A DNA stretch of 64,000 nt, taken from Klebsiella phage NU-KP11. The notes beneath the pieces were generated by a model. It worked only from the letters and a program-made list of their open reading frames with translations, ran no database searches and was not told the DNA's origin. A program made the position numbers and the translations under genes. Where the stretch lies: sequence record OR644643.1; one strand, given 5' to 3'. Of the stretch, positions 3,585-28,176 are shown piece by piece (position 1 is the stretch's first letter; each line of letters opens with the position of its first letter).

Positions 3585-3787
3585 TGGAACACGTAATCAA
3601 AACAGAGATTGACAAACGCGTATTTTTGGAAAAGAATAAAACGGTAACGCTGTTGAACTACTCCACTGAAAATTGTTCTAGTGAATTTTGGCGCGTTAAC
3701 ATCGATAGCAAAGGGCAACACCAATCAATACCGTTTGATAATGAAAGTCTCGCTCGCGCTGTCTTCCAATCCCATGTTAGATTTTGA
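3581..3787 (+). CDS. hypothetical protein (68 aa)
   Basis: ATGA coupling to upstream stop. Confidence 0.4.
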   Translation: MMEHVIKTEIDKRVFLEKNKTVTLLNYSTENCSSEFWRVNIDSKGQHQSIPFDNESLARAVFQSHVRF

Positions 3788-3798
3788 GAATTATATTA

Positions 3799-4943
3799 TG
3801 AATAACGCACAAACTGTTCTGAAAGCTCCTACCCTGTTCATCTATCAAGATGGTGATATCCGTTACGCTCGCTCTAAGTGGTATAACTACAATTTCAACG
3901 TTAAAACTGGTGAGTTTGCTCGCTGGGGAACATCGTTTGAAACTGATCCTACCTATGCCCCATTCCCCGAAATTCTCGATATCGAGATCACAACTAAATG
4001 TAATGGCCCCGCTGGTAAACTTTGCGGTTTCTGCTACAAGTCTAATAACCCTAACGGCTTCAATATGGATCTTGATACATTCAAATCTATCATTGATAAA
4101 ATGCCCTGGTTAACACAATGCGCCCTCGGTGCTGATGCACAGGGACAAACAAACCCTGATATGTTTGATATGATGGCCTATGCGCGTTCTAAAGGCATTG
4201 TACCAAACCTTACCATTGCTGATGTATCAAAAGACGTTGCAGCGCGTTTAGCGGCTGTTGCTGGGGCTGTTGCGGTATCAGTATACAAACATGCTGGATT
4301 CGATGTAGCGTTTAACTCAGTGGCTAATCTGGCAGAAGCCGGACAACAGCAAATCAACCTTCATTTCATGGTTAGCTCTAAAACCTATGATGACGCGTTT
4401 AACGTGGTTGATGCTGTAAAGAATGATCCGCGCTTGAAACAAGTTAACGCGATCGTATTCCTGGGTCTGAAACAAAAAGGTCGTGGGAAGAACTGGGATA
4501 CCGTTACACGCGAGCAGTATAAAGCGCTGGTAGATTATTGCCTTGAATCCGGTGTAGGGTTCGGTTTTGATTCCTGTTCCGCTCCGGCCTTTGTAGAGGC
4601 TATGGAAGGGCATGAAAATTTTGAACAATACAAACAGTACGCGGAAGATTGCGAAGCAACTATGTTTAGCTCGTACATCAACGAGAAGGGCGAATTCTTC
4701 CCTTGTTCCTTTACTGAACGTTGGGTCGAGGGTGGATGGTCAGAAGGGCTTAACGTCCTGGAAGCCAGTGATTTTATCAAAGATATCTGGGAACATCCGA
4801 AAACTAAGAAATTCCGTCAGGAATTGATCGGTAACAAGGATCATAACGGTTGCCGTAACTGTCCGGCTTATGCGGTATGTGGTAAAGATATGCGCGTACA
4901 CAAAGCCCCTGAATTGGATGTATACTCGGTGGAATTGAAATGA
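3799..4943 (+). CDS. radical-SAM/SPASM-like protein with non-canonical Cx7CxxC cluster (ITTKCNGPAGKLCGFCY) and C-terminal CxxCx5C (CRNCPAYAVC)
   Basis: Motif layout read in translation; track ORF 3681..4943 trimmed to MNNAQTVL start. Confidence 0.4.
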
Positions 4944-7981: not shown

Positions 7982-8377
7982 ATGTTTAAATTCAGTCAAA
8001 AAAGCCTTAACAACCTTAAAGGTGTTAAACCTCAACTGGTGAAAGTTGTAGAACGCGCTCTGCAACTATCTCCTGTTGATTTTGGTGTACGTGAAGGTCT
8101 GCGTACTGTTGAACAACAGCGCGAGAACGTCCGTAAGGGTGTATCTCAAACAATGAACTCAAAACACATCACGGGTGATGCTGTGGATCTGTATCCTAGC
8201 GTATTGCCTCAAGGCTGGCAAACAAACCCTAAAGTGTGGTTGCCTGTCCTGAATGCTGTTAAACAAGCAGGTGATGAACTGGGTGTTAAACTGCGTTTTG
8301 GTATCAACTGGAAAAATGATCCGAACCTTCCGATCGAAACAAAATTCATTGATGCCCCGCATGTGGAATTAGCGTAA
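7982..8377 (+). CDS. endolysin, L-alanyl-D-glutamate peptidase (peptidase M15, T5 Lys-like)
   Basis: Strong similarity to recalled T5 endolysin sequence (SPVDFGV..EGLRTV..SKHITGDAVDL..GHVEL). Confidence 0.8.
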   Translation: MFKFSQKSLNNLKGVKPQLVKVVERALQLSPVDFGVREGLRTVEQQRENVRKGVSQTMNSKHITGDAVDLYPSVLPQGWQTNPKVWLPVLNAVKQAGDELGVKLRFGINWKNDPNLPIETKFIDAPHVELA

Positions 8378-8922: not shown

Positions 8923-10266
8923 ATGAAATATGTTTTAGACACTAACGTTTTAGTCTCGAACCCCTATTCAATCTATTCATTCACTCAACCTGGTACAGAA
9001 ATCATTATTACCTCTGCTACTATGGGTGAATTAGATCACCTGAAAACGAAAGAACGAACAGCACACGAAGCACGATTGGCGATCCGGCTTCTGTCAAAAG
9101 TTATTTTCGGTCAGTCATATGATGCGATTACGAAATCAGGTATTCCTTTAAACCTGACAAACCCAGCACTGTCTGACACTATCACCCTTAAAGTGGTTGA
9201 TTATGTCGGAAACAAAACGTTTGCTCTTGACAAGCAAGACGAACGAATCATTGAAACTTGTATGCAACAGGATGCAACCTTAGTTACTCGCGATATTATG
9301 ATGTTGCTGATCGCAATGTCCCGTGGGTGTAAGGTAGAACAGTATACTGGCGACGATACGTTAAAAGATAGCGATGTATTGTATTCCGGTTATGTAGAGA
9401 TCCCTGATTTCTGGGATACCGTAGAAGTGTTGGGATATACAGATAATGTAGCCCAAATCACTTACAGTTCGCTTCCTGACGAATATTTTTATCCTAACCA
9501 GTACATTACCTCAAATGGTGAGTTAGTCGGGCGTGTGGTGACTGCTGATGAGATTTGCTTGAATGTCTTACCTGTTAAGCACGAACAGGCTATGAAACGC
9601 AAACTCATGAAAGCTATTCAGCCCCGTGATTCTCTGCAAGCGGCTTTCGTTGAATCCATTATGAGCAATGAAATCGATGTTGCTACCATTATGGGCGGCG
9701 CTGGTTCTGGTAAAACAATGCTTGCTGTTTCCGGTGCTATGCACCTGGTTAATAGTGGACATTACGCTAACTTGATGTATGTGAAGTCAGATAGCCCGTT
9801 ATCAAGTGAAATCGGCTTCCTTCCTGGTACATTGGGCGAAAAACTCCGGCCTTCTATCGAACCTTGTATTACTAGCCTGAACATTCTGTTTAAGGATAAT
9901 CCGGAATCTGAAAAATACATTGAAGGTTTGATTGAAAAAGGGGTGGTGCAATTCCCTAGCCTGTATTACTTCCGTGGTCGCAGTATCGGACATCCGGATC
10001 CGGGCAAAGGTTCTGTGCTGATTGTTGATGAATGTCAAAACCTTAGCAACCACGAAATTAAATCTATCATTTCTCGTTGCGGAGAGAACACACTTCTGAT
10101 ACTATGCGGGAACATTAAGCAGATCGACAACCCTCGAAACACTGCCGTTAACAACGGGTTTGTATGGGCTGTTGAAAAGCTGAAAGAATACGAACACTCA
10201 AGCCATATCATTCTTGATACAGTGTATCGTTCCCGTCTCGCGGCGTTTGTCGAAGATAATTTCTAA
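8923..10266 (+). CDS. phoH: PhoH-like ATPase with N-terminal PIN domain
   Basis: Walker A GGAGSGKT; N-terminal YVLDTNVL PIN-like. Confidence 0.85.
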   Translation: MKYVLDTNVLVSNPYSIYSFTQPGTEIIITSATMGELDHLKTKERTAHEARLAIRLLSKVIFGQSYDAITKSGIPLNLTNPALSDTITLKVVDYVGNKTFALDKQDERIIETCMQQDATLVTRDIMMLLIAMSRGCKVEQYTGDDTLKDSDVLYSGYVEIPDFWDTVEVLGYTDNVAQITYSSLPDEYFYPNQYITSNGELVGRVVTADEICLNVLPVKHEQAMKRKLMKAIQPRDSLQAAFVESIMSNEIDVATIMGGAGSGKTMLAVSGAMHLVNSGHYANLMYVKSDSPLSSEIGFLPGTLGEKLRPSIEPCITSLNILFKDNPESEKYIEGLIEKGVVQFPSLYYFRGRSIGHPDPGKGSVLIVDECQNLSNHEIKSIISRCGENTLLILCGNIKQIDNPRNTAVNNGFVWAVEKLKEYEHSSHIILDTVYRSRLAAFVEDNF

Positions 10267-19955: not shown

Positions 19956-20329
19956 TTGATTTAAGTGATGTGAAAGTTGGTGATACGTTGTATGATGCTG
20001 GGATCCGTAGTGACCAGCGACAAAATCGCAACCCCAAAACCCTTTACGTACAAAAAGTTGCGCGTCAGTACCTGTATGCATCTTTCCGACCGGAAGATGG
20101 GTCTGATTGTTGTACTAATATTAAAATCAAGCGCAATTCCGGATGGGCTGAGGGGTGGATGGGGTATCAACTGTATCGTAGCGAAGAAGAATATAAAGAA
20201 ATGGTGTACCGCCGCGATTTGTGTGATAAGATTAAAAAAGTATTTGGGAACAGCTACGGAACAAACATCCCTGATATTACTACCGCTGAATTGCGCGGGA
20301 TTGCAAAAACATTAAAGGTTGAATTCTGA
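19952..20329 (+). CDS. hypothetical protein (125 aa)
   Basis: ATGA coupling. Confidence 0.5.
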   Translation: MIDLSDVKVGDTLYDAGIRSDQRQNRNPKTLYVQKVARQYLYASFRPEDGSDCCTNIKIKRNSGWAEGWMGYQLYRSEEEYKEMVYRRDLCDKIKKVFGNSYGTNIPDITTAELRGIAKTLKVEF

Positions 20330-21336
20330 TGAAAATGATTATGGAAACCGTATTTGGTTCTCACCTGTACGGACTGGAAACACCAACAAGCGATAAAGAC
20401 TACAAAGGGATCTATCTCCCTCATCCTCGCGAAATCCTGTTAGGTACTGCGAAGAAGTCTATTGATACATCAACTGGCGATAAAAACTCAAAGAACGGTG
20501 TTAATGACGTAGACCGTCAGATTTACAGTCTGCAAAAGTTTATCAGCCTCGCATGTGATGGTGACACCGTGGCGATTGATATGCTTCATGCAGATGATAG
20601 CAAACTGATCGCTAACTCTGATATCTGGCAATATCTCCGCGCTAACCGTTCACGCTTCTACACTACGGAACTAACTGGTCTGTTTGGTTATGTTCGTAAG
20701 CAAGCGGCGAAGTATGGCGTTAAAGGTTCTCGCCTGGCTGCACTGCGTGAAGTTGTTGATGTGTTACAGATGATTCCTGATTACTGGTATGGCACATCAT
20801 TGCTGGGTAACGTGGATGAATCTAATTACGGCAAGCGCATCAAAGTTGGTGAGATTTCTAACCGATTCCCGACCAACGAGTTTTGTCGATTCGTTACAGA
20901 CAAAACACTGAAATCAGGTTGTCAGGATTTTTACGAAGTTCTGGGGCGTAAATTCCAGTCTACAATCACCGTAGCAGAAATGAAGAAATCCGTGTATAAA
21001 CTCTGGGATGAATACGGGGAACGCGCACGGCAAGCAGAAGCCAACAACGGGATCGACTGGAAAGCTCTTTCTCATGCATTGCGCGGTGGTATGCAGTTAA
21101 TCCAGATTTTCAAAGAAGGTGATATTGTGTATCCTCTTCCGGATAGCGCATTTTTGAAAATGGTTAAAGCTGGCGGTGTTCCTTTCGCAACCGTACAAGA
21201 GGCGCTAGAATCAACGATGTGTGAAGTTGAAAAGCTGGCGGCTGTATCTGGTTATCCGAAAGAAGTTGATCGAGATTTCTGGAATGATTTCATTGAACGT
21301 GTGTATTCTGAACATGTTGTGAGGTACTACAAATGA
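20329..21336 (+). CDS. Pol-beta-superfamily nucleotidyltransferase (GS-x10-DxD: FGSHLYGLETPTSDKDYKGIY)
   Basis: motif in translation; ATGA coupling. Confidence 0.5.
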   Translation: MKMIMETVFGSHLYGLETPTSDKDYKGIYLPHPREILLGTAKKSIDTSTGDKNSKNGVNDVDRQIYSLQKFISLACDGDTVAIDMLHADDSKLIANSDIWQYLRANRSRFYTTELTGLFGYVRKQAAKYGVKGSRLAALREVVDVLQMIPDYWYGTSLLGNVDESNYGKRIKVGEISNRFPTNEFCRFVTDKTLKSGCQDFYEVLGRKFQSTITVAEMKKSVYKLWDEYGERARQAEANNGIDWKALSHALRGGMQLIQIFKEGDIVYPLPDSAFLKMVKAGGVPFATVQEALESTMCEVEKLAAVSGYPKEVDRDFWNDFIERVYSEHVVRYYK

Positions 21337-21578: not shown

Positions 21579-21841
21579 TGACTGATGTTATTTTGAACGT
21601 TAAAGATATTGTACTGGGCGATAAAGTCAAAAACCCAGACGCGGTTACACTGGAACAGGCTGTTGTTAATATTATGCGCGATAGCCTCCGCCTGGAAGTT
21701 AACGAGATTACAGAAACTTGTTATACAGGTGGACTTTGTGGTCAATCTCTTTATCGTGATGCAAAAAGCGTGAATATTCAGCTATGGGCTGATATTGGCG
21801 AAGAATCATACAAAATCGATGAGGTTGATTTCGACGTATGA
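21569..21841 (+). CDS. hypothetical protein (90 aa)
   Basis: overlap coupling. Confidence 0.5.
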   Translation: MALMTDVILNVKDIVLGDKVKNPDAVTLEQAVVNIMRDSLRLEVNEITETCYTGGLCGQSLYRDAKSVNIQLWADIGEESYKIDEVDFDV

Positions 21842-22749
21842 AAATAATTGACCTTTGCGCTGGTGTTGGTGGCGTGAGGCTCGGTTTCGATAAGGCATTC
21901 GGCGGGGTCGAATGCCTTTTAACGTCTGAAATCGATAAACATGCACAACAAACATATGCTGATAACTGGGGTGATGAAAATATTCAGGGTGATATATTCG
22001 CCATTGATGAAAACGATGTACCCGATCACGATATCCTGTTGGCGGGATTTCCTTGTCAGGCGTTCAGTAAAGCAGGGTTAAAACAGGGCATGTTAGATCC
22101 TCGCGGTACTATCATCTTTGAAATACTCCGCATTATACGGGCTAAAAAGCCCTCTGTGCTGTTCTTTGAGAATGTTCCCCAGCTATTAACCCATGACAAG
22201 GGAAACACGTTTAAAACCATCTACAGGCTGTTACAGGACGAAGGATACGATATCCATTATCAGGTAATGAATACAAAAGACTTTGGATTGCCTCAACGAA
22301 GAGAGCGCGTGTTTATTGTCTGCTTTCGCGATCCGGTGTTCTTTAGTTTTCCTGTTCCTCCACGTACCCCAACAAGGGTCGGTGACATTCTCGAACCGGA
22401 TAATGATCAATACACCATATCAGATCGTGCCTGGAAGGGCTTTAGAGAGCGTAAAAAACGAAACAAGGCAAACGGTAAGGGGTTTGGCTATCAGGCCGTT
22501 ACAGTTGATTCTGTGTGTACTGGGACGATAACAGCCCAATACTATAAGGATGGTGTTCAATGTCTGGTATTGCAGGAAGGTAAGAACCCTCGAATGTTAT
22601 CACCTCGCGAGTGTTTCCGGTTGCAAGGATTTCCGGATTCATTCAAGATGCATAAGAGCAAAACACAGGCGTACAAACAAGCGGGTAACTCTGTATCTGT
22701 TCCGGTGATCGAAGCAATTGCAAAACAAATCAAAAAAGCGCTTGCATAG
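21838..22749 (+). CDS. DNA (cytosine-5)-methyltransferase
   Basis: Motif I DLCAGVGG, motif IV GFPCQAFS, ENVP motif. Confidence 0.85.
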   Translation: MKIIDLCAGVGGVRLGFDKAFGGVECLLTSEIDKHAQQTYADNWGDENIQGDIFAIDENDVPDHDILLAGFPCQAFSKAGLKQGMLDPRGTIIFEILRIIRAKKPSVLFFENVPQLLTHDKGNTFKTIYRLLQDEGYDIHYQVMNTKDFGLPQRRERVFIVCFRDPVFFSFPVPPRTPTRVGDILEPDNDQYTISDRAWKGFRERKKRNKANGKGFGYQAVTVDSVCTGTITAQYYKDGVQCLVLQEGKNPRMLSPRECFRLQGFPDSFKMHKSKTQAYKQAGNSVSVPVIEAIAKQIKKALA

Positions 22750-23580: not shown

Positions 23581-23806
23581 CATTGAGTTGATTTTTGATG
23601 ACCGTTTTGAGCAAACGTCTGATTGTGTATGTTCTACTGTTGACCTGAACGTCGCGATCAAATACATTAAACATACACCGCTTCCGTCGTTGCATTACTA
23701 TTGTGTAACCGTGTTTGATGGATTCACAGGAAAGCCAACACATCGTTGTACTGTTGGTTATAACGAAAGAAAACATTTCACTGCGTTTGAGTGGGAGAAA
23801 TTATAA
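23567..23806 (+). CDS. hypothetical protein (79 aa)
   Basis: ORF track. Confidence 0.45.
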   Translation: MNIYSIELIFDDRFEQTSDCVCSTVDLNVAIKYIKHTPLPSLHYYCVTVFDGFTGKPTHRCTVGYNERKHFTAFEWEKL

Positions 23807-24321
23807 TGAAGATCCGTTCTGGTTTTGTGAGCAATAGTTCATCAAGTAGTTTCATCGTCCGGTTCCCGAAGGATCCGACTGATATCAACAATCTCCGCGA
23901 AATGATGGGTGATTGTGTTCCTAACTGTGGTTATAGCTGGATGACTTGCCCGACAGCGGAAGAAGTTGTACAGCAAGTACACCGCGACCTGGGAGGTCAT
24001 ATGGGGAATGGCTTTGAATCATACTATGATGATAAGCGTTATGAATGGGAAACCGAAGATAGCGCCGAAACTCGATATCGGTCTAATCCTCAAATTGCGC
24101 TTGCTTATGATGGGCGTGACTGGTATGATCTGGAAACAGAAGAGAAAGACGCTCTGATCAAGATGTGGTTGTATGAAGAGTACAACTCTAAATTTGGCAA
24201 TCAGGACGGTGTATTCATTTATGAATTTACTTACTCTGATGAATGCGGAGAATTCCAATCCCAGCTTGAACACGGGCAAATTTTCCGTAATCTGGAACAC
24301 ACTATGAAGAGTCATCACTGA
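23806..24321 (+). CDS. paralog A of MKIRSGFVSNSSSSSF-leader family (171 aa)
   Basis: N-terminal 16 aa identical to ORF 27706..28176 with synonymous DNA differences. Confidence 0.55.
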   Translation: MKIRSGFVSNSSSSSFIVRFPKDPTDINNLREMMGDCVPNCGYSWMTCPTAEEVVQQVHRDLGGHMGNGFESYYDDKRYEWETEDSAETRYRSNPQIALAYDGRDWYDLETEEKDALIKMWLYEEYNSKFGNQDGVFIYEFTYSDECGEFQSQLEHGQIFRNLEHTMKSHH

Positions 24322-24641
24322 TGGAATACGAAATCTGTGTAAAAATGCCCCCCTATCAACTGGGGGAAGAAATAACGTTTAGTCAAACTCTACCAGTACC
24401 GATTGATTTATTTTCTTTGCGAAAATATCTTGAACGGTTTGATCTGAATGAGTATACTATTCAAATCGTAAGGATTAAAAATCCTGTTGCCTACGCTCTG
24501 TCTTTTGACGTTGGCGAGTCTCAAACAACAACGATGGATGATTTTGTTTCATTGTTGAGTAGTAAGTTTGGATGCGATGATGCATTAGATACTATTAGCA
24601 AAAAAGTAAACGAAATTTTAATCAAATTTACCTATAAATGA
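24321..24641 (+). CDS. hypothetical protein (106 aa)
   Basis: ATGA coupling. Confidence 0.5.
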   Translation: MEYEICVKMPPYQLGEEITFSQTLPVPIDLFSLRKYLERFDLNEYTIQIVRIKNPVAYALSFDVGESQTTTMDDFVSLLSSKFGCDDALDTISKKVNEILIKFTYK

Positions 24642-24648
24642 GAAAATT

Positions 24649-26865
24649 ATGATCACTAACATTGAATTCAAAAACGCCGTAGCCAAACCAACCCCGACTA
24701 ACCACGTTTTTGTTTGTGACGTATCCGGATCGATGTATAACGAACTCCCGCGCATTCGTCAGCACCTGAAAAACAACCTGGCAACGCTGGTTAAGCAGGA
24801 TGATACCGTATCTATTCTGTATTTCTCCAGCCGTGGTCAGTTCGGTTCTGTATTCGTGGGCGAAAAGGTTAGCTCTGTATCCGACCTGAGCAAAATCAAT
24901 GATGCTATCGATCGTTATCTGCGTCCGACCGGATGTACTGGCTTCGTTGAACCTCTGCAACTGGCGGTTGAAGTCGCTACCGATCTGCAAGCGGATAATG
25001 GCAATCTGAACAGTCTGATCTTCCTGACTGATGGTTATGATAACTGCTGGCGTACTGATGACATCCTGAAAGCGTGTTCTACTCTGCCGTTGACGTTTAA
25101 CAACATTGCTTTCCTGGAATATGGTTATTATGTAAACCGTCCTCTGCTGGAAAAAATGGCGGAAGCAACCAACGCATTACACAAATTCGTTGAAGGGTTT
25201 GATGCGTATGTACCTGCATTTGATGAAATCATTACCGCGCAAACCTCCGCACGTGTTGAAGTCAAAGTTGGCGATGCAACCCATGCGATCTACCTGGATG
25301 AAGGCCGTGTGTATGTCCTGAATGCTGCAAATGGTGTTGTTCTGGTTCCGGAACATATCAAAAACATTTGGGCGCTGGGTGAAAACGCGATCAATGACGT
25401 TGACGGCTTCGATCCGGCAACAGCAGAAGGTGAACAGGTTCTGTATGTGGTTCTGTATCATGCGCTTCATACCATGAATCCAGATCTGGCATGGAAAGTT
25501 CTGAAAAAGCTGGGTGATGTGCGTCTGATTAAAGCATACGATAACTGCTTTACCAAACAGGATTATTCCAACGCTAAAGATATGATCTCCGAAGCGGTTG
25601 TTGATCCGGCTAAACGTCTGATGGATGGTGTTGATTACAACATGGTTCCTGATGAAAATGCGTTTACTCTGGTTGATGCTCTCGAACTGCTGGCAGAAAC
25701 CGACACCGTGATCGACCTGTCTTCTGAACACTGGGCGTACAATCGTACAGGCCGTCAGACTGTCCAGAAAGATGATGATACGCTGGATAAACTGTCAGAA
25801 CAGATTGCAAACGCTTCTACTCCGGAAGAACGTAAAGCACTGGCGGCGCAACTGGTAGCGCATGAAGTATGGAAACCGGAATTTACCCAAACCACAACGA
25901 AAGTTGCAGTGAAACACCTGGTGGGTAACAGTTCCCGTCCGAACATTTCCATCAATACGGATCTACAAGGTTATGTAACCATTCCGGAAAGCAAACAAAA
26001 AGAGTTTGGATTACCGGAAAAAGTAGAAACCAAACAAGTGCGTAACTTTACCATTGTTAAAGATGGTATCGTGAACGTTAAAGTACTGCCGCTGGAAACT
26101 GATATTCCGACTCTGAAAAACTTACGTGCTTCTGGTCTGACTATCAAACCGCTGGCGAAAATTGGTGAAGACCGTATGTCTGTACTGGTTGACTTTACCT
26201 CTCTGCCTCTGGTTAACCGTTCGATGACTCGCGGTATTTCTGGTAAGGAATTTGTTGCTGATAACGTCCGTCTGGAAATCCTGAAAGGCCGTCAGAAGGT
26301 AATGAAGTTCTTCCGTGATAACGCGATTGGTTTACGCAACGCAGAAGGGCTTAAACAGCGCTTTGGTGAGGCGGCTGGTGAATGGTTGTCTGAGCAAGGG
26401 ATCCGTGATTACGGCTTCTCTCCGAAGGTTGAGCGCACAGAATCGACTGATGTTTACATGTCGAAAGAACTGAACGTGAAAATCAAAGGCGTTTCATCAC
26501 TTCCGGCTGTTGCGGCTACCGTTGCAAAACGCGCCGAAGGTAAGAAGAAACTCAACAATGGTGACCTGATCATTCTGTGGGCTTACGATACCGTATCTAA
26601 AGAGATCGAAGCGCTTGACAAGAATGACCTGATCGAGTATCTTGATAAGCAGACAAAGGAAACTATTAAAGAGGTTCGCGCCCTTAATAATCGCCTGAGT
26701 CGTGTAATGTACGGTATTGTCGTCGGACACGCATGGTTTGCGGATCTGGATTTCGAAGAAACCAGCGTAAGCGTTACCGCAACAGATATCGTTGCAGCGG
26801 AATTCTGGAAAGATGTGAAATTTGATTGCACAATCGTTCTGGAAGAAAAAGAAGTCAAACTCTAA
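24649..26865 (+). CDS. large von Willebrand factor A (vWA) domain protein (738 aa)
   Basis: MIDAS motif VFVCDVSGSMYN near N-terminus. Confidence 0.7.
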   Translation: MITNIEFKNAVAKPTPTNHVFVCDVSGSMYNELPRIRQHLKNNLATLVKQDDTVSILYFSSRGQFGSVFVGEKVSSVSDLSKINDAIDRYLRPTGCTGFVEPLQLAVEVATDLQADNGNLNSLIFLTDGYDNCWRTDDILKACSTLPLTFNNIAFLEYGYYVNRPLLEKMAEATNALHKFVEGFDAYVPAFDEIITAQTSARVEVKVGDATHAIYLDEGRVYVLNAANGVVLVPEHIKNIWALGENAINDVDGFDPATAEGEQVLYVVLYHALHTMNPDLAWKVLKKLGDVRLIKAYDNCFTKQDYSNAKDMISEAVVDPAKRLMDGVDYNMVPDENAFTLVDALELLAETDTVIDLSSEHWAYNRTGRQTVQKDDDTLDKLSEQIANASTPEERKALAAQLVAHEVWKPEFTQTTTKVAVKHLVGNSSRPNISINTDLQGYVTIPESKQKEFGLPEKVETKQVRNFTIVKDGIVNVKVLPLETDIPTLKNLRASGLTIKPLAKIGEDRMSVLVDFTSLPLVNRSMTRGISGKEFVADNVRLEILKGRQKVMKFFRDNAIGLRNAEGLKQRFGEAAGEWLSEQGIRDYGFSPKVERTESTDVYMSKELNVKIKGVSSLPAVAATVAKRAEGKKKLNNGDLIILWAYDTVSKEIEALDKNDLIEYLDKQTKETIKEVRALNNRLSRVMYGIVVGHAWFADLDFEETSVSVTATDIVAAEFWKDVKFDCTIVLEEKEVKL

Positions 26866-26903
26866 TGAGATCTCGCCCCCGAAAGGGGGCTTTGAGGTGA
26901 CTT

Positions 26904-27554
26904 GTGGAATTACTTGAATTGGACTTTAAAAATCTTATGAATATATGTGAACTGAATCAAGGTGACATCCTTTATTTCTCCAATCGTGATGGGTTTCGTA
27001 ATTCCCGTCCTGAAAACATCGGCTTTCATTCACAGCTACCTGATTTCATCGTCGTTGATGATGTCCGGTTAACAGATAACGGCTGGCAGGTTGATGTAGT
27101 CGGATTCAAAAATAACAATGGTGCTATCGTATGGCGTCCTGGTTCTATTGATGAGTCGGTGTATTTTAACAACATTCGTGTAAACATCGATGAAATCGGA
27201 ACCGATCTGAGCGAAGTTCGGGAATCTCCGTATGTGTTCAGCAACTGGTTTAAAGTTGGTGGCGCGTATCGTTCTGATAACACAACCGTTGTGTATGTTG
27301 ATAGTTTGATGTCTGGTATGGTTAACTTCAACCCGTCATTACCTGGCAACAACGGCACGATGATGGACATTTTCAGAGATTATAATCGTTCTGGAACAAT
27401 GTTACCTTCTGAAAAAGCATATGTTATCAATCGTTGTTTGAAAGGGCTGTACCAGGATATGCTTACCTATAACGAAGGTAACGTAAAAGATGCGCTTCAC
27501 GATCTGAATAAGATCCTGAAAGAAGTTTCTATGAGAATGGATACCCGCAAATGA
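26904..27554 (+). CDS. hypothetical protein (216 aa, GTG start with SD GAGGTGA)
   Basis: ORF track. Confidence 0.5.
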   Translation: MELLELDFKNLMNICELNQGDILYFSNRDGFRNSRPENIGFHSQLPDFIVVDDVRLTDNGWQVDVVGFKNNNGAIVWRPGSIDESVYFNNIRVNIDEIGTDLSEVRESPYVFSNWFKVGGAYRSDNTTVVYVDSLMSGMVNFNPSLPGNNGTMMDIFRDYNRSGTMLPSEKAYVINRCLKGLYQDMLTYNEGNVKDALHDLNKILKEVSMRMDTRK

Positions 27555-27709
27555 TTTCTTTATTCGCGTTCGTTTCAGTTGTTGTATTGATTTTCGCTGG
27601 AGGTGTTATCTATCATGGGTGTGACCGTCGTGAAGATAAGGTCATTCTATGGGGTATCGTCTTTGCGCTAATCCCTCTATTCATGATTGGTAATATGGTG
27701 ATGCGATGA
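27551..27709 (+). CDS. small two-TM membrane protein (52 aa, not in track)
   Basis: ATGA coupling both sides. Confidence 0.4.
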   Translation: MISLFAFVSVVVLIFAGGVIYHGCDRREDKVILWGIVFALIPLFMIGNMVMR

Positions 27710-28176
27710 AAATTCGTTCTGGGTTTGTGAGCAATAGCTCAAGCAGTAGCTTTATTATCGGGATCGGACTTGTTCGCCCTGGTAAAGAAAAGGAAGTTGC
27801 TGATATCTACGGTGAGAATAATATTGAGTCATTAATAGATATGATCACCGATGATACTCGTTCGAAGTGGGGTATTCCTCAAGTCGATAGCAACGGTACG
27901 ATCTCACTGGAAGCGTTCGGTTCCCATAGCGTTGAGATTTCGTATATCTGGGATAAGTTGAAAGAACTGGGGATGGACGATATCAAAATTGTTCACTTCA
28001 ATGAACGCGGCGATGAACCAGAATATGATGATGAATGCGGAAGATACAATTATAGCTGGTATGAAGACGCCGACGCGTTCGGGCCTGAACTCGAAAGAAA
28101 GTATAATTTATTACGTGATAACCGCGAACTGTTCATTGAAGGCGATGTGAATTGTGGCGGGGATTACGACGGTTAA
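27706..28176 (+). CDS. paralog B of MKIRSGFVSNSSSSSF-leader family (156 aa)
   Basis: see 23806..24321. Confidence 0.55.
   Translation: MKIRSGFVSNSSSSSFIIGIGLVRPGKEKEVADIYGENNIESLIDMITDDTRSKWGIPQVDSNGTISLEAFGSHSVEISYIWDKLKELGMDDIKIVHFNERGDEPEYDDECGRYNYSWYEDADAFGPELERKYNLLRDNRELFIEGDVNCGGDYDG

What the first reader, a model, noticed from the sequence alone, without database searches (positions are those of the whole stretch)
23806..28176. Large vWA (MIDAS) protein bracketed by two paralogs that share an identical 16-aa N-terminal peptide kept under purifying selection
ORFs 23806..24321 and 27706..28176 both start MKIRSGFVSNSSSSSF, but their DNA differs at synonymous positions (atgaagatccgttctggttttgtgagcaatagttcatcaagtagtttc versus atgaaaattcgttctgggtttgtgagcaatagctcaagcagtagcttt). 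The peptide, not the nucleotide sequence, is therefore conserved. The rest of the two proteins has diverged, with shared DECG-containing acidic stretches. Between them sit a 738-aa vWA protein, a 216-aa protein and a 52-aa two-TM peptide. The shared leader resembles a targeting tag, such as the capsid-targeting sequence of the T4 internal proteins (an anti-restriction cargo) or a secretion or degron tag. A vWA-centred cassette of this shape is not a known T4 module.
Basis: partly seen in the sequence, partly recalled or inferred. Interest (0 to 1): 0.7.

Follow-up and report, generated by a model that had tools for sequence, protein, structure and literature searches.

The report
Radical-SAM-linked N-terminal tag on phage proteins
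The identical 16-residue start of two small proteins in this T4-like Klebsiella phage is a near-invariant tag on hundreds of otherwise unrelated phage proteins whose genes sit beside one radical SAM enzyme gene (also in this window), which points to an undescribed protein-modification system and not to a vWA cassette.

Summary
ORFs 23806..24321 (A) and 27706..28176 (B) both start MKIRSGFVSNSSSSSF, and their 9 DNA differences are all synonymous. The interpretation needs revising.

- A and B share only the tag. Their bodies show no detectable homology.
- The tag (M-K-x-R-x-G-F-V-S-N-S-S-S-S-S-F, always at residue 1) heads at least 359 distinct proteins in about 130 fetched viral loci. There are up to 13 per locus, falling into dozens of unrelated body types.
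- The one gene family that travels with them is a roughly 350-aa radical SAM enzyme with a SPASM/twitch Fe-S domain. Of 72 loci outside the window's clade seeded with that enzyme, 64 carry tagged ORFs. All 264 are on its strand, usually starting just downstream.
- The window has this enzyme at about 3774..4943. The closely related KP27 genome has exactly two tagged genes.
- The vWA protein is never near tagged genes outside the RB43-like clade. Its orthologs occur in Ackermannviridae without tagged neighbours.

Most likely the tag is the site where the radical SAM enzyme recognises and modifies these proteins. The chemistry and the biological role are unknown. I found no Pfam, NCBIfam or literature description.

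The parts
23806..24321 (+). Tagged protein A (171 aa). It has the N-terminal tag and an 'A-type' body that ends FTYSDECG...LEHGQIFRNLEH...SHH-COOH.
23806..23853 (+). Tag of A: MKIRSGFVSNSSSSSF (16 codons).
27706..28176 (+). Tagged protein B (156 aa). It has the N-terminal tag and a 'B-type' body that ends CGGDYDG-COOH (family consensus YGAGRNG-COOH).
27706..27753 (+). Tag of B: MKIRSGFVSNSSSSSF (16 codons).
3774..4943 (+). Radical SAM enzyme with a SPASM/twitch-type auxiliary Fe-S domain, the candidate enzyme that acts on the tag. The ORF is open from GTG 3681. ATG 3774 corresponds to the KP27_176 annotation, and the true start is uncertain. The Cys triad reads C-x7-C-x2-C (TKCNGPAGKLCGFCYKSN).
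   Evidence: ORF. Pfam SPASM scores 27.9 bits against a cutoff of 21.5. NCBIfam gives a radical SAM maturase N-terminal region at 2.3e-7, SPASM at 2.8e-5 and twitch at 1.9e-5. It is 36-47% identical to the enzyme next to the tagged-gene arrays, with C87/C95/C98 and C279/C304/C322/C374 invariant. It matches phrog_7293, function unknown. KP27 annotates it as a hypothetical protein.
24649..26865 (+). 738-aa vWA/MIDAS protein. It is a neighbour of A and B, and I judge that it is not part of the tag system.
   Evidence: Pfam VWA. It is 87-89% identical across the RB43-like clade. Orthologs at about 49% identity occur in Ackermannviridae without tagged neighbours. It is absent from all other tag or radical SAM loci.
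24321..24641 (+). 106-aa ORF (phrog_7677, function unknown). It is clade-specific filler between A and the vWA gene and carries no tag.
26904..27554 (+). 216-aa ORF (phrog_7309, function unknown). It is clade-specific and carries no tag.
27551..27709 (+). 52-aa ORF with two hydrophobic segments (phrog_7160). Its stop overlaps the start of B, and it carries no tag.

Best explanation
A and B are two members of a very large, undescribed set of phage and archaeal-virus proteins. They share nothing except an N-terminal tag, M-K-x-R-x-G-F-V-S-N-S-S-(S/T)-(S/T/A)-S-F, placed exactly at residue 1.

The tag is most likely the recognition and modification site for one virus-encoded radical SAM enzyme with a SPASM/twitch-type auxiliary Fe-S domain. 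In this window that enzyme is at about 3774..4943. One enzyme would then serve many substrate proteins: two in this phage and up to 13 in others. This resembles one RiPP maturase serving many precursors with a common leader, or anSME serving many sulfatases.

- **Shown:** the tag, its conservation at the amino-acid level, the diversity of the bodies, and the tight two-way genomic linkage with the enzyme.
- **Inferred:** that the tagged proteins are substrates rather than partners, and that the flexible N-terminal tail enters the enzyme's active site.
- **Guessed:** the chemistry. One candidate is oxidation of an invariant Ser to a formylglycine-type aldehyde. Another is a C-C cyclophane crosslink within F7-V8-S9.
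- **Unknown:** what the modified proteins do. They are probably accessory, host-directed proteins.

The vWA gene lies between A and B by lineage-specific gene order, not by function.
For: 1. **Tag conservation.** In 359 distinct proteins, M1 is 100% conserved, K2 99.7%, R4 99.7%, G6 95%, F7 99%, V8 96%, S9 99%, S15 99% and F16 94%. The core sits at a fixed offset from Met in 455 of 482 occurrences. All Ser codons are used at every Ser position.
2. **Unrelated bodies.** 142 tagged proteins fall into 57 BLAST clusters. A and B bodies give hhalign probability 0.6%.
3. **Forward linkage.** In tag-seeded loci, the only non-tag family found in many loci is a radical SAM/SPASM protein, present in 25 of 42 loci.
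4. **Reverse linkage.** Eighty viral loci were seeded with the enzyme. Sixty-four carry tagged ORFs, and all 264 of those ORFs are on the enzyme's strand. The nearest one usually starts 12-700 nt after the enzyme's stop, and one locus has 13 in tandem. Eight of the 16 loci without tagged ORFs belong to the RB43-like clade, where the genes lie about 19-23 kb apart. No third family co-occurs.
5. **Closest outgroup.** Its enzyme is 68% identical to the window's. It has a B-type gene about 1.8 kb upstream of the enzyme and an A-type gene about 1 kb downstream.
6. **Isolate phages.** The enzyme (180 records) and B (172 records) occur in the same genera with nearly the same counts.
7. **Enzyme class.** The class fits protein or peptide modification. 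It has a SPASM domain above the Pfam cutoff. The best profile matches to solved structures are BtrN (2.3e-6), SkfB (0.007) and SuiB (0.06).
8. **Accessible tail.** AF2 places residues 1-10 or 1-11 of both A and B as a disordered tail in front of a confidently folded domain.
Against: - In this window the enzyme gene is 19-23 kb from A and B, so there is no operon link in this phage.
- There is no biochemical evidence of any modification.
- Pfam detects no PqqD-like (RRE) leader-binding domain in the enzyme.
- Eight non-RB43-clade enzyme loci have no tagged ORF within 10 kb. Seventeen of 42 tag-seeded loci have no enzyme within 10 kb.
- The closest solved relative, BtrN, acts on a small molecule (from my own knowledge).
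- The tag could be a docking peptide rather than a substrate.
- N10, S11 and S12 look invariant partly because the search pattern required them.
Confidence: 0.6

Rival explanations
1. Docking adaptors. The tag is not modified. It anchors each small protein to the radical SAM enzyme, and each variable body recruits a different target for the enzyme to act on, or regulates the enzyme.
For: This rests on the same genomic linkage. The bodies are very diverse. The enzyme has a conserved N-terminal extension of about 50 aa (NYNF.F...G.F.RWG...DP..SP.GPE) of unknown role that could bind a strand.
Against: Enzymes of the SPASM/twitch class with solved structures modify the peptide they bind (SkfB, SuiB; and my own knowledge). 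An invariant run rich in Ser, Asn and Phe looks more like a reaction site than a simple docking strand. No case of this adaptor arrangement is known to me.
Confidence: 0.12
2. Intrinsic functional motif. The tag is an active-site or ligand-binding loop (for example for phosphate or a nucleotide) of proteins that share a cryptic common fold. The radical SAM enzyme is merely part of the same pathway.
For: In A-type and B-type proteins, conservation reaches both the first and the last residue, which suggests the termini meet. A-type has conserved D, E-H, H and S-H-H residues that could bind metal.
Against: The bodies are not detectably homologous. AF2 leaves residues 1-11 unpacked in both models despite high confidence elsewhere. 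No residue outside the tag is conserved across the whole set. No fold match to known nucleotide- or phosphate-binding folds was found.
Confidence: 0.1
3. The tag targets A and B to the capsid (like the T4 internal-protein targeting sequence), to secretion or to degradation, and the vWA protein is the hub of a cassette.
For: The tag is short, N-terminal, disordered in models and shared by unrelated proteins. The order A-vWA-B is conserved across the RB43-like clade. A has an L-x-E triplet at residues 30-32 (read).
Against: vWA does not co-occur with tagged genes anywhere else. The tag is invariant across viruses with very different hosts and virions. No head, protease or secretion gene co-occurs, only the radical SAM enzyme. 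B has no L/I-x-E near its N-terminus. The 'head-tail adaptor' label for B comes from a weak phrog_132 hit matched by only 2 of 128 tagged proteins. In a Vi01-like phage proteomics paper, the vWA protein appears only in the list of conserved proteins. The term does not occur again in the main text, which holds the virion mass-spectrometry table (PMC10892097).
Confidence: 0.07

Closest known systems
RiPP systems with a radical SAM/SPASM maturase and many precursors that share a leader (for example sactipeptides with SkfB, streptide with SuiB; the many-precursor logic of prochlorosins)
   Same: One radical SAM enzyme with an auxiliary Fe-S domain is encoded next to several genes. Their products share a short conserved N-terminal sequence and differ downstream. 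All lie on the same strand in a tandem array.
   Different: The 'cores' here are folded proteins of 80-400 aa, not short peptides. The conserved part is only about 16 residues and starts at Met1. No RRE, protease or exporter is associated. The system is found on viral contigs, or on MAG contigs that look viral.
anSME (anaerobic sulfatase-maturating enzyme) and its sulfatase substrates
   Same: A radical SAM/SPASM-family enzyme would modify a short Ser-containing motif in many full-length proteins. Ser-to-aldehyde chemistry would suit an invariant Ser-rich tag. The nearest solved relative by profile is BtrN, which from my own knowledge is also a radical SAM dehydrogenase.
   Different: The sulfatase motif (C/S)-x-(P/A)-x-R is absent. 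The substrates are not sulfatases. Only 4-5 auxiliary Cys are conserved, which suggests one extra cluster rather than two. No NCBIfam anSME hit was found.
Three-residue cyclophane ('triceptide', FxS-type) radical SAM/SPASM systems (recalled from memory, not tested)
   Same: The invariant F7-V8-S9 fits an aromatic-x-x motif of the kind crosslinked by such enzymes.
   Different: No specific sequence similarity to those maturase families appeared in the NCBIfam scan. Their substrates are short peptides.
Capsid targeting sequence of the T4 internal proteins
   Same: It is a short N-terminal peptide shared by unrelated small proteins of a T4-like phage.
   Different: There is no sequence resemblance to the T4 sequence as I recall it. 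The tag is spread far beyond T4-like phages and is linked to a radical SAM enzyme rather than to head genes.

Membership tests
Radical SAM / SPASM-twitch protein- or peptide-modifying system | Radical SAM Cys triad (CX3CX2C or a variant) in the enzyme | tested here: met
   C87, C95 and C98 are invariant in 18 homologs. The spacing is C-x3-13-C-x2-C, and C-x7-C-x2-C in the window. Pfam Radical_SAM scores 1.3e-8 for the metagenomic homolog. The window copy matches the radical SAM maturase N-terminal region at 2.3e-7. Pfam Radical_SAM itself was not reported for the window copy at E <= 0.1.
Radical SAM / SPASM-twitch protein- or peptide-modifying system | C-terminal auxiliary Fe-S (SPASM or twitch) domain | tested here: met
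   PF13186 SPASM scores 27.9 bits against a cutoff of 21.5. TIGR04085 scores 2.8e-5 and the twitch family 1.9e-5. C279, C304, C322 and C374 are conserved.
Radical SAM / SPASM-twitch protein- or peptide-modifying system | Substrate genes with a shared recognition sequence encoded beside the enzyme | tested here: inconclusive
   Met in relatives: 64 of 72 loci outside the RB43-like clade, all on the same strand, and in the closest outgroup. Not met in the window itself, where the genes are 19-23 kb apart.
Radical SAM / SPASM-twitch protein- or peptide-modifying system | Leader-binding RRE (PqqD-like) domain | tested here: not met
   Pfam shows only Radical_SAM and SPASM. This feature is not universal in the class; from my own knowledge, anSME lacks it.
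Radical SAM / SPASM-twitch protein- or peptide-modifying system | A demonstrated chemical modification of the tagged protein | not testable with these tools
   This needs mass spectrometry of co-expressed proteins.
anSME-sulfatase | Substrate motif (C/S)-x-(P/A)-x-R | tested here: not met
   The tag MK.R.GFVSNSSSSSF has no such pattern.
Glycyl radical proteins and their activases | An invariant Gly in an R-V-x-G-[FY] fingerprint | tested here: not met
   The tag has R-x-G-F, which is a different spacing. G6 is replaced by T, S, R, Y or K in 18 of 359 proteins. The enzyme has a SPASM-type domain, which from my own knowledge is not typical of activases.
T4 internal-protein capsid targeting sequence | N-terminal targeting peptide that ends in a prohead-protease site (L/I-x-E), plus presence in virions | tested here: inconclusive
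   There is no resemblance to the T4 sequence as I recall it. A has L-R-E at residues 30-32, and B has none before about residue 85 (read). Packaging could not be tested.
vWA / MIDAS domain (the 738-aa protein only) | vWA fold profile and a DxSxS metal-site motif | tested here: met
   VWA_2 scores 29.2 against 27 and VWA scores 26.4 against 23.8, over residues 20-175. The motif D24-V-S26-G-S28 is present. The C-terminal 560 aa or so have no family hit.
Head-tail adaptor (phrog_132 label carried by some GenBank records for B) | Membership of the adaptor family | tested here: not met
   B matches phrog_132 at only 7.7e-10. Only 2 of 128 tagged proteins match it. There is no structural match to adaptors. 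The genes sit among early or accessory genes.

The most novel reading that the evidence does not exclude
This is a widespread, previously undescribed post-translational modification system of large phages and probably of archaeal viruses. A single radical SAM/SPASM-type enzyme would install a modification on an invariant 12-16-residue N-terminal tag carried by up to 13 unrelated folded proteins per genome. The modification could be a Ser-derived aldehyde or an aromatic crosslink. This would extend RiPP-like maturation from peptides to a whole repertoire of viral effector proteins.
Probability: 0.5. Interest if true: 0.9.

Novelty: new variant of a known kind. Interest (0 to 1): 0.8.

Why it matters
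If the tag is modified by the radical SAM enzyme, three things follow.

- **New enzymology.** It would define a new radical SAM substrate class made of whole folded proteins that share a 16-residue handle.
- **Annotation.** It would give a common biochemical identity to more than a thousand sequence clusters of 'hypothetical' phage proteins. Some of these are now mislabelled 'head-tail adaptor'.
- **Experimental access.** The tag would be a genetic handle for finding and studying a hidden set of phage accessory proteins. It might also serve as a portable tag for enzymatic protein modification.

The system is directly testable with an isolated, well-characterised Klebsiella phage that has only one enzyme gene and two substrate genes.

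Tried and rejected
**Family and homology searches**
- Sequence searches of A, B and vWA against PDB gave only chance-level hits.
- Pfam, NCBIfam and PADLOC found nothing for A, B or the small ORFs.
- tblastn of the family consensus, and of a distant member, against isolate phages was too insensitive: no match and a self-match only.
- The first attempt to scan genome contigs failed on the broad alignment. A narrower alignment worked.

**Ideas rejected**
- Glycyl-radical idea: rejected because G6 varies.
- T4 capsid-targeting idea: there is no supporting linkage and no clear protease site.
- 'Head-tail adaptor' (phrog_132) and 'minor tail protein' labels in some GenBank records: judged to be annotation artefacts.

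**Uninformative analyses**
- Promoter and terminator scans around the cassette and the enzyme gave counts no higher than in shuffled sequence.
- A quick dN/dS estimate for A against an ortholog was invalid because of an indel, and I discarded it.

**Literature**
- Searches for the motif strings, for phage radical SAM/SPASM systems and for RB43-group radical SAM genes found nothing relevant.
- The KP15/KP27 genome paper has no virion proteome.
Full report
**What the window is.** The region is 98.8-99% identical over 5 kb to Klebsiella phage KP27 and its relatives (Slopekvirus, Straboviridae; the RB43-like 'pseudo-T-even' group). All genes from about 3.7 kb to 29.5 kb of the window run on the + strand, among small genes that are mostly unannotated.

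**Checking the observation.** ORF A (23806..24321, 171 aa) and ORF B (27706..28176, 156 aa) both begin MKIRSGFVSNSSSSSF.
- Their first 48 nt differ at 9 positions. All differences are synonymous, and one is a TCA/AGC serine switch.
- No other ORF in the window carries the motif. None does in the rest of the KP27 genome either.
- Four ORFs lie between A and B, not three: 106 aa, the 738-aa vWA protein, 216 aa and 52 aa.
- The vWA call is sound. Pfam scores are above the cutoffs and the DxSxS motif is present.
- A and B are not paralogs in the usual sense. Profile-profile comparison aligns only the first 36 columns. With the first 20 residues removed, the probability of homology is 0.6%. The shared 'DECG' is not significant.

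**The two families.**
- Relatives of A keep the tag and a C-terminal motif (F-T-Y-S-D-E-D-G ... M-E-H-G-x-I-F-R-N ... H ... S-H-H) that ends at the last residue. The middle is variable and sometimes carries a 90-aa insertion.
- Relatives of B are very numerous. There are 1005 clusters at 50% identity, nearly all about 150 aa. They keep the tag from Met1 and end in Y-G-A-G-R-N-G.
- Neither family has a Pfam, NCBIfam or PADLOC match, and sources name them only 'hypothetical protein'.
- The AF2 models are confident: A has pLDDT 83, and B has pLDDT 87.5 with pTM 0.79. In both, the first 10-11 residues are a disordered tail and the domain starts with a strand at about residue 12.
- Neither model resembles a solved or predicted viral structure.

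**The tag is not special to A and B.** A scan of IMG/VR for the tag found 509 matching stretches. In the 51 loci fetched, 148 ORFs begin with the tag, with up to 10 in one 20-kb locus and 7 within 3 kb in another.
- After removing the tag, 142 distinct proteins fall into 57 BLAST clusters.
- Besides the A and B types, there is a 90-aa type, a type with a zinc ribbon directly after the tag, and many singletons.
- Pooling all loci gives 359 distinct proteins with a median length of 134 aa. Conservation is M1 100%, K2 99.7%, R4 99.7%, G6 95%, F7 99%, V8 96%, S9 99%, S13 89%, S14 80%, S15 99% and F16 94%. Conservation stops after two hydrophobic residues.
- The core sits at a fixed distance from the start codon in 455 of 482 cases. 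N10, S11 and S12 were required by the search pattern, so their 100% is partly by construction.
- Every Ser position uses all six codons, and Arg4 uses both codon boxes.
- None of 128 tagged proteins has a credible Pfam hit. Eighty-one match phrog_7397 and only two match phrog_132, which is the source of the 'head-tail adaptor' label in some records.

**The partner.** I clustered all ORFs in the tag-seeded loci. Only one non-tag family was present in many of them, in 25 of 42 loci. It is a protein of about 350 aa with a CxxxCxxC motif and a Cys-rich C-terminus. Pfam identifies it as Radical_SAM plus SPASM.
- Its homolog is in this window at 3681/3774..4943. It is 36-47% identical to the metagenomic copies and has invariant Cys at 87, 95 and 98 and at 279, 304, 322 and 374.
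- The SPASM domain scores above the Pfam cutoff.
- KP27 annotates it as hypothetical protein KP27_176.

**The reverse test.** Seeding with the enzyme returned 187 viral relatives, of which I examined the best 80 with 10-kb flanks.
- Sixty-four carry tagged ORFs.
- All 264 of these ORFs lie on the enzyme's strand.
- The nearest usually starts a few tens to hundreds of bases after the enzyme's stop codon.
- One locus has 13 tagged ORFs in a row.
- Eight of the 16 loci without tagged ORFs belong to the RB43-like clade, where the tagged genes lie beyond the flank.
- No third gene family travels with the pair.
- The closest outgroup to the window's enzyme (68% identity) has a B-type gene and two further tagged genes just upstream of the enzyme, and an A-type gene about 1 kb downstream. 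Adjacency therefore looks ancestral, and the separation in the RB43-like clade looks secondary.

**Distribution.**
- Among isolate phages, the enzyme and B occur in the same genera with nearly the same record counts.
- In 185,579 species-representative genomes the enzyme was found only 19 times, always in MAGs and mostly on short contigs. Many of these are archaeal.
- Thirteen of those 19 loci carry tagged ORFs. Several show a variant tag that keeps MK.R.GFVSNSS and then differs.

**The vWA protein.** It is highly conserved within the RB43-like clade (87-89% identity), more so than its small neighbours.
- Full-length orthologs at about 49% identity occur in Ackermannviridae, and more distant ones in Rhizobium and other phages.
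- In the Ackermannviridae locus I inspected there is no tagged ORF within 6 kb. That family is also absent from the radical SAM hits.
- None of the roughly 115 other tag or enzyme loci holds a vWA homolog.
- The vWA gene is therefore an independent gene that sits between A and B only in this lineage.
- Its function remains unknown. Only residues 20-175 match any family.

**How it most likely works.** Enzymes of the radical SAM class with SPASM or twitch domains mostly modify ribosomal peptides or proteins at a short recognised sequence. This statement rests on established knowledge of AlbA, SkfB, SuiB, PqqE, MftC and anSME. A profile of the viral enzyme matches BtrN (2.3e-6), SkfB (0.007) and SuiB (0.06) among solved structures.
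- The evidence has three parts: an invariant tail predicted to be flexible at the very N-terminus of many unrelated folded proteins, an adjacent enzyme of this class, and no other partner. The simplest reading is one enzyme with many tagged substrates.
- The residue chemistry is open. Positions 13 and 14 tolerate Thr, Ala and Cys, and the archaeal-type variants change 13-15. The reactive residue is therefore more likely within G6-S12.
- A glycyl radical is unlikely because G6 is replaced in 5% of proteins.
- Two candidate reactions fit. One is Ser oxidation to an aldehyde, as anSME does, and BtrN is also a dehydrogenase. The other is an aromatic-to-C-beta crosslink in F7-V8-S9.
- What the tagged proteins do after modification is unknown. 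They lie among early or accessory genes and are highly diverse, which suggests host-directed accessory functions.

**Rivals.**
- The tag could dock adaptor proteins onto the enzyme without being modified.
- It could be an intrinsic active-site loop of a cryptic common fold.
- The first two cannot be excluded without experiments. The third has no support from gene linkage, but packaging was not testable here.

**Novelty.** Full-text searches for the motif and for phage radical SAM/SPASM systems found nothing relevant, and no curated family covers the tagged proteins. The logic of a maturase with tagged substrates is known. Applying it to a repertoire of full-length viral proteins that share a 16-residue N-terminal handle appears to be new.

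Noticed in passing
window 3681..4943: The radical SAM Cys triad has unusual, variable spacing. It is C-x7-C-x2-C in the window and C-x3 to C-x13 before the CxxC in relatives. A conserved extension of about 50 aa (NYNF.F...G.F.RWG...DP..SP.GPE) precedes it and has no known role.
   Followed up: partly
L138, L139, L145, L148 (MAG contigs labelled Promethearchaeota, Thermoplasmata, archaeon, Heimdallarchaeota); L141 lies on a 793-kb contig: The enzyme also occurs on contigs binned with archaea. The adjacent ORFs there carry a variant tag (MK.R.GFVSNSS followed by TYSY, TVNF or VSSF), and one of them is 423 aa long. This suggests archaeal viruses or integrated elements carry the system.
   Followed up: partly
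L038, L044, L035 (IMG/VR loci): The radical SAM gene appears split into two or more ORFs in some metagenomic phages. It may be interrupted by an insertion. An HNH-like ORF directly follows the enzyme in L065.
   Followed up: no
window 27706..28176 and 24649..26865; GenBank records of the 'Roth' phages (L001): Some public records call B a 'head-tail adaptor' and the vWA protein a 'minor tail protein'. The first label traces to a weak phrog_132 hit. Neither label is supported by gene context or by structure searches.
   Followed up: yes
window 26873..26890: A GC-rich hairpin (GCCCCCGAAAGGGGGC followed by TTTG) lies directly after the vWA stop codon and looks like a terminator. The consensus terminator scan did not list it.
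   Followed up: no
window 23806..28176: Gene junctions overlap: the stop of A overlaps the start of the 106-aa ORF, the 216-aa ORF overlaps the 52-aa ORF, and the 52-aa ORF overlaps B (ATGA). This suggests translational coupling along the block.
   Followed up: no
window 21838..22749 and 20329..21336: Just upstream of the block lie a cytosine-C5 DNA methyltransferase-like ORF (303 aa) and a 335-aa nucleotidyltransferase (phrog_388). The literature describes the KP15/KP27 group as having an unknown DNA modification (PMC5219037).
   Followed up: no
window 8923..10266 and 7982..8377: A 447-aa PhoH-like protein (phrog_2765) is present. A 131-aa ORF has the same length as the published KP27 endolysin and lies where KP27 annotates its endolysin. 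I did not check its family.
   Followed up: no
L004 (Vibrio phage D479, 257 kb): An isolate phage outside the RB43-like clade has five tagged ORFs within 9 kb, among RNA ligase, PNK and NADAR genes. One Vibrio record also appears among the radical SAM hits, but I did not confirm that it is the same phage.
   Followed up: partly
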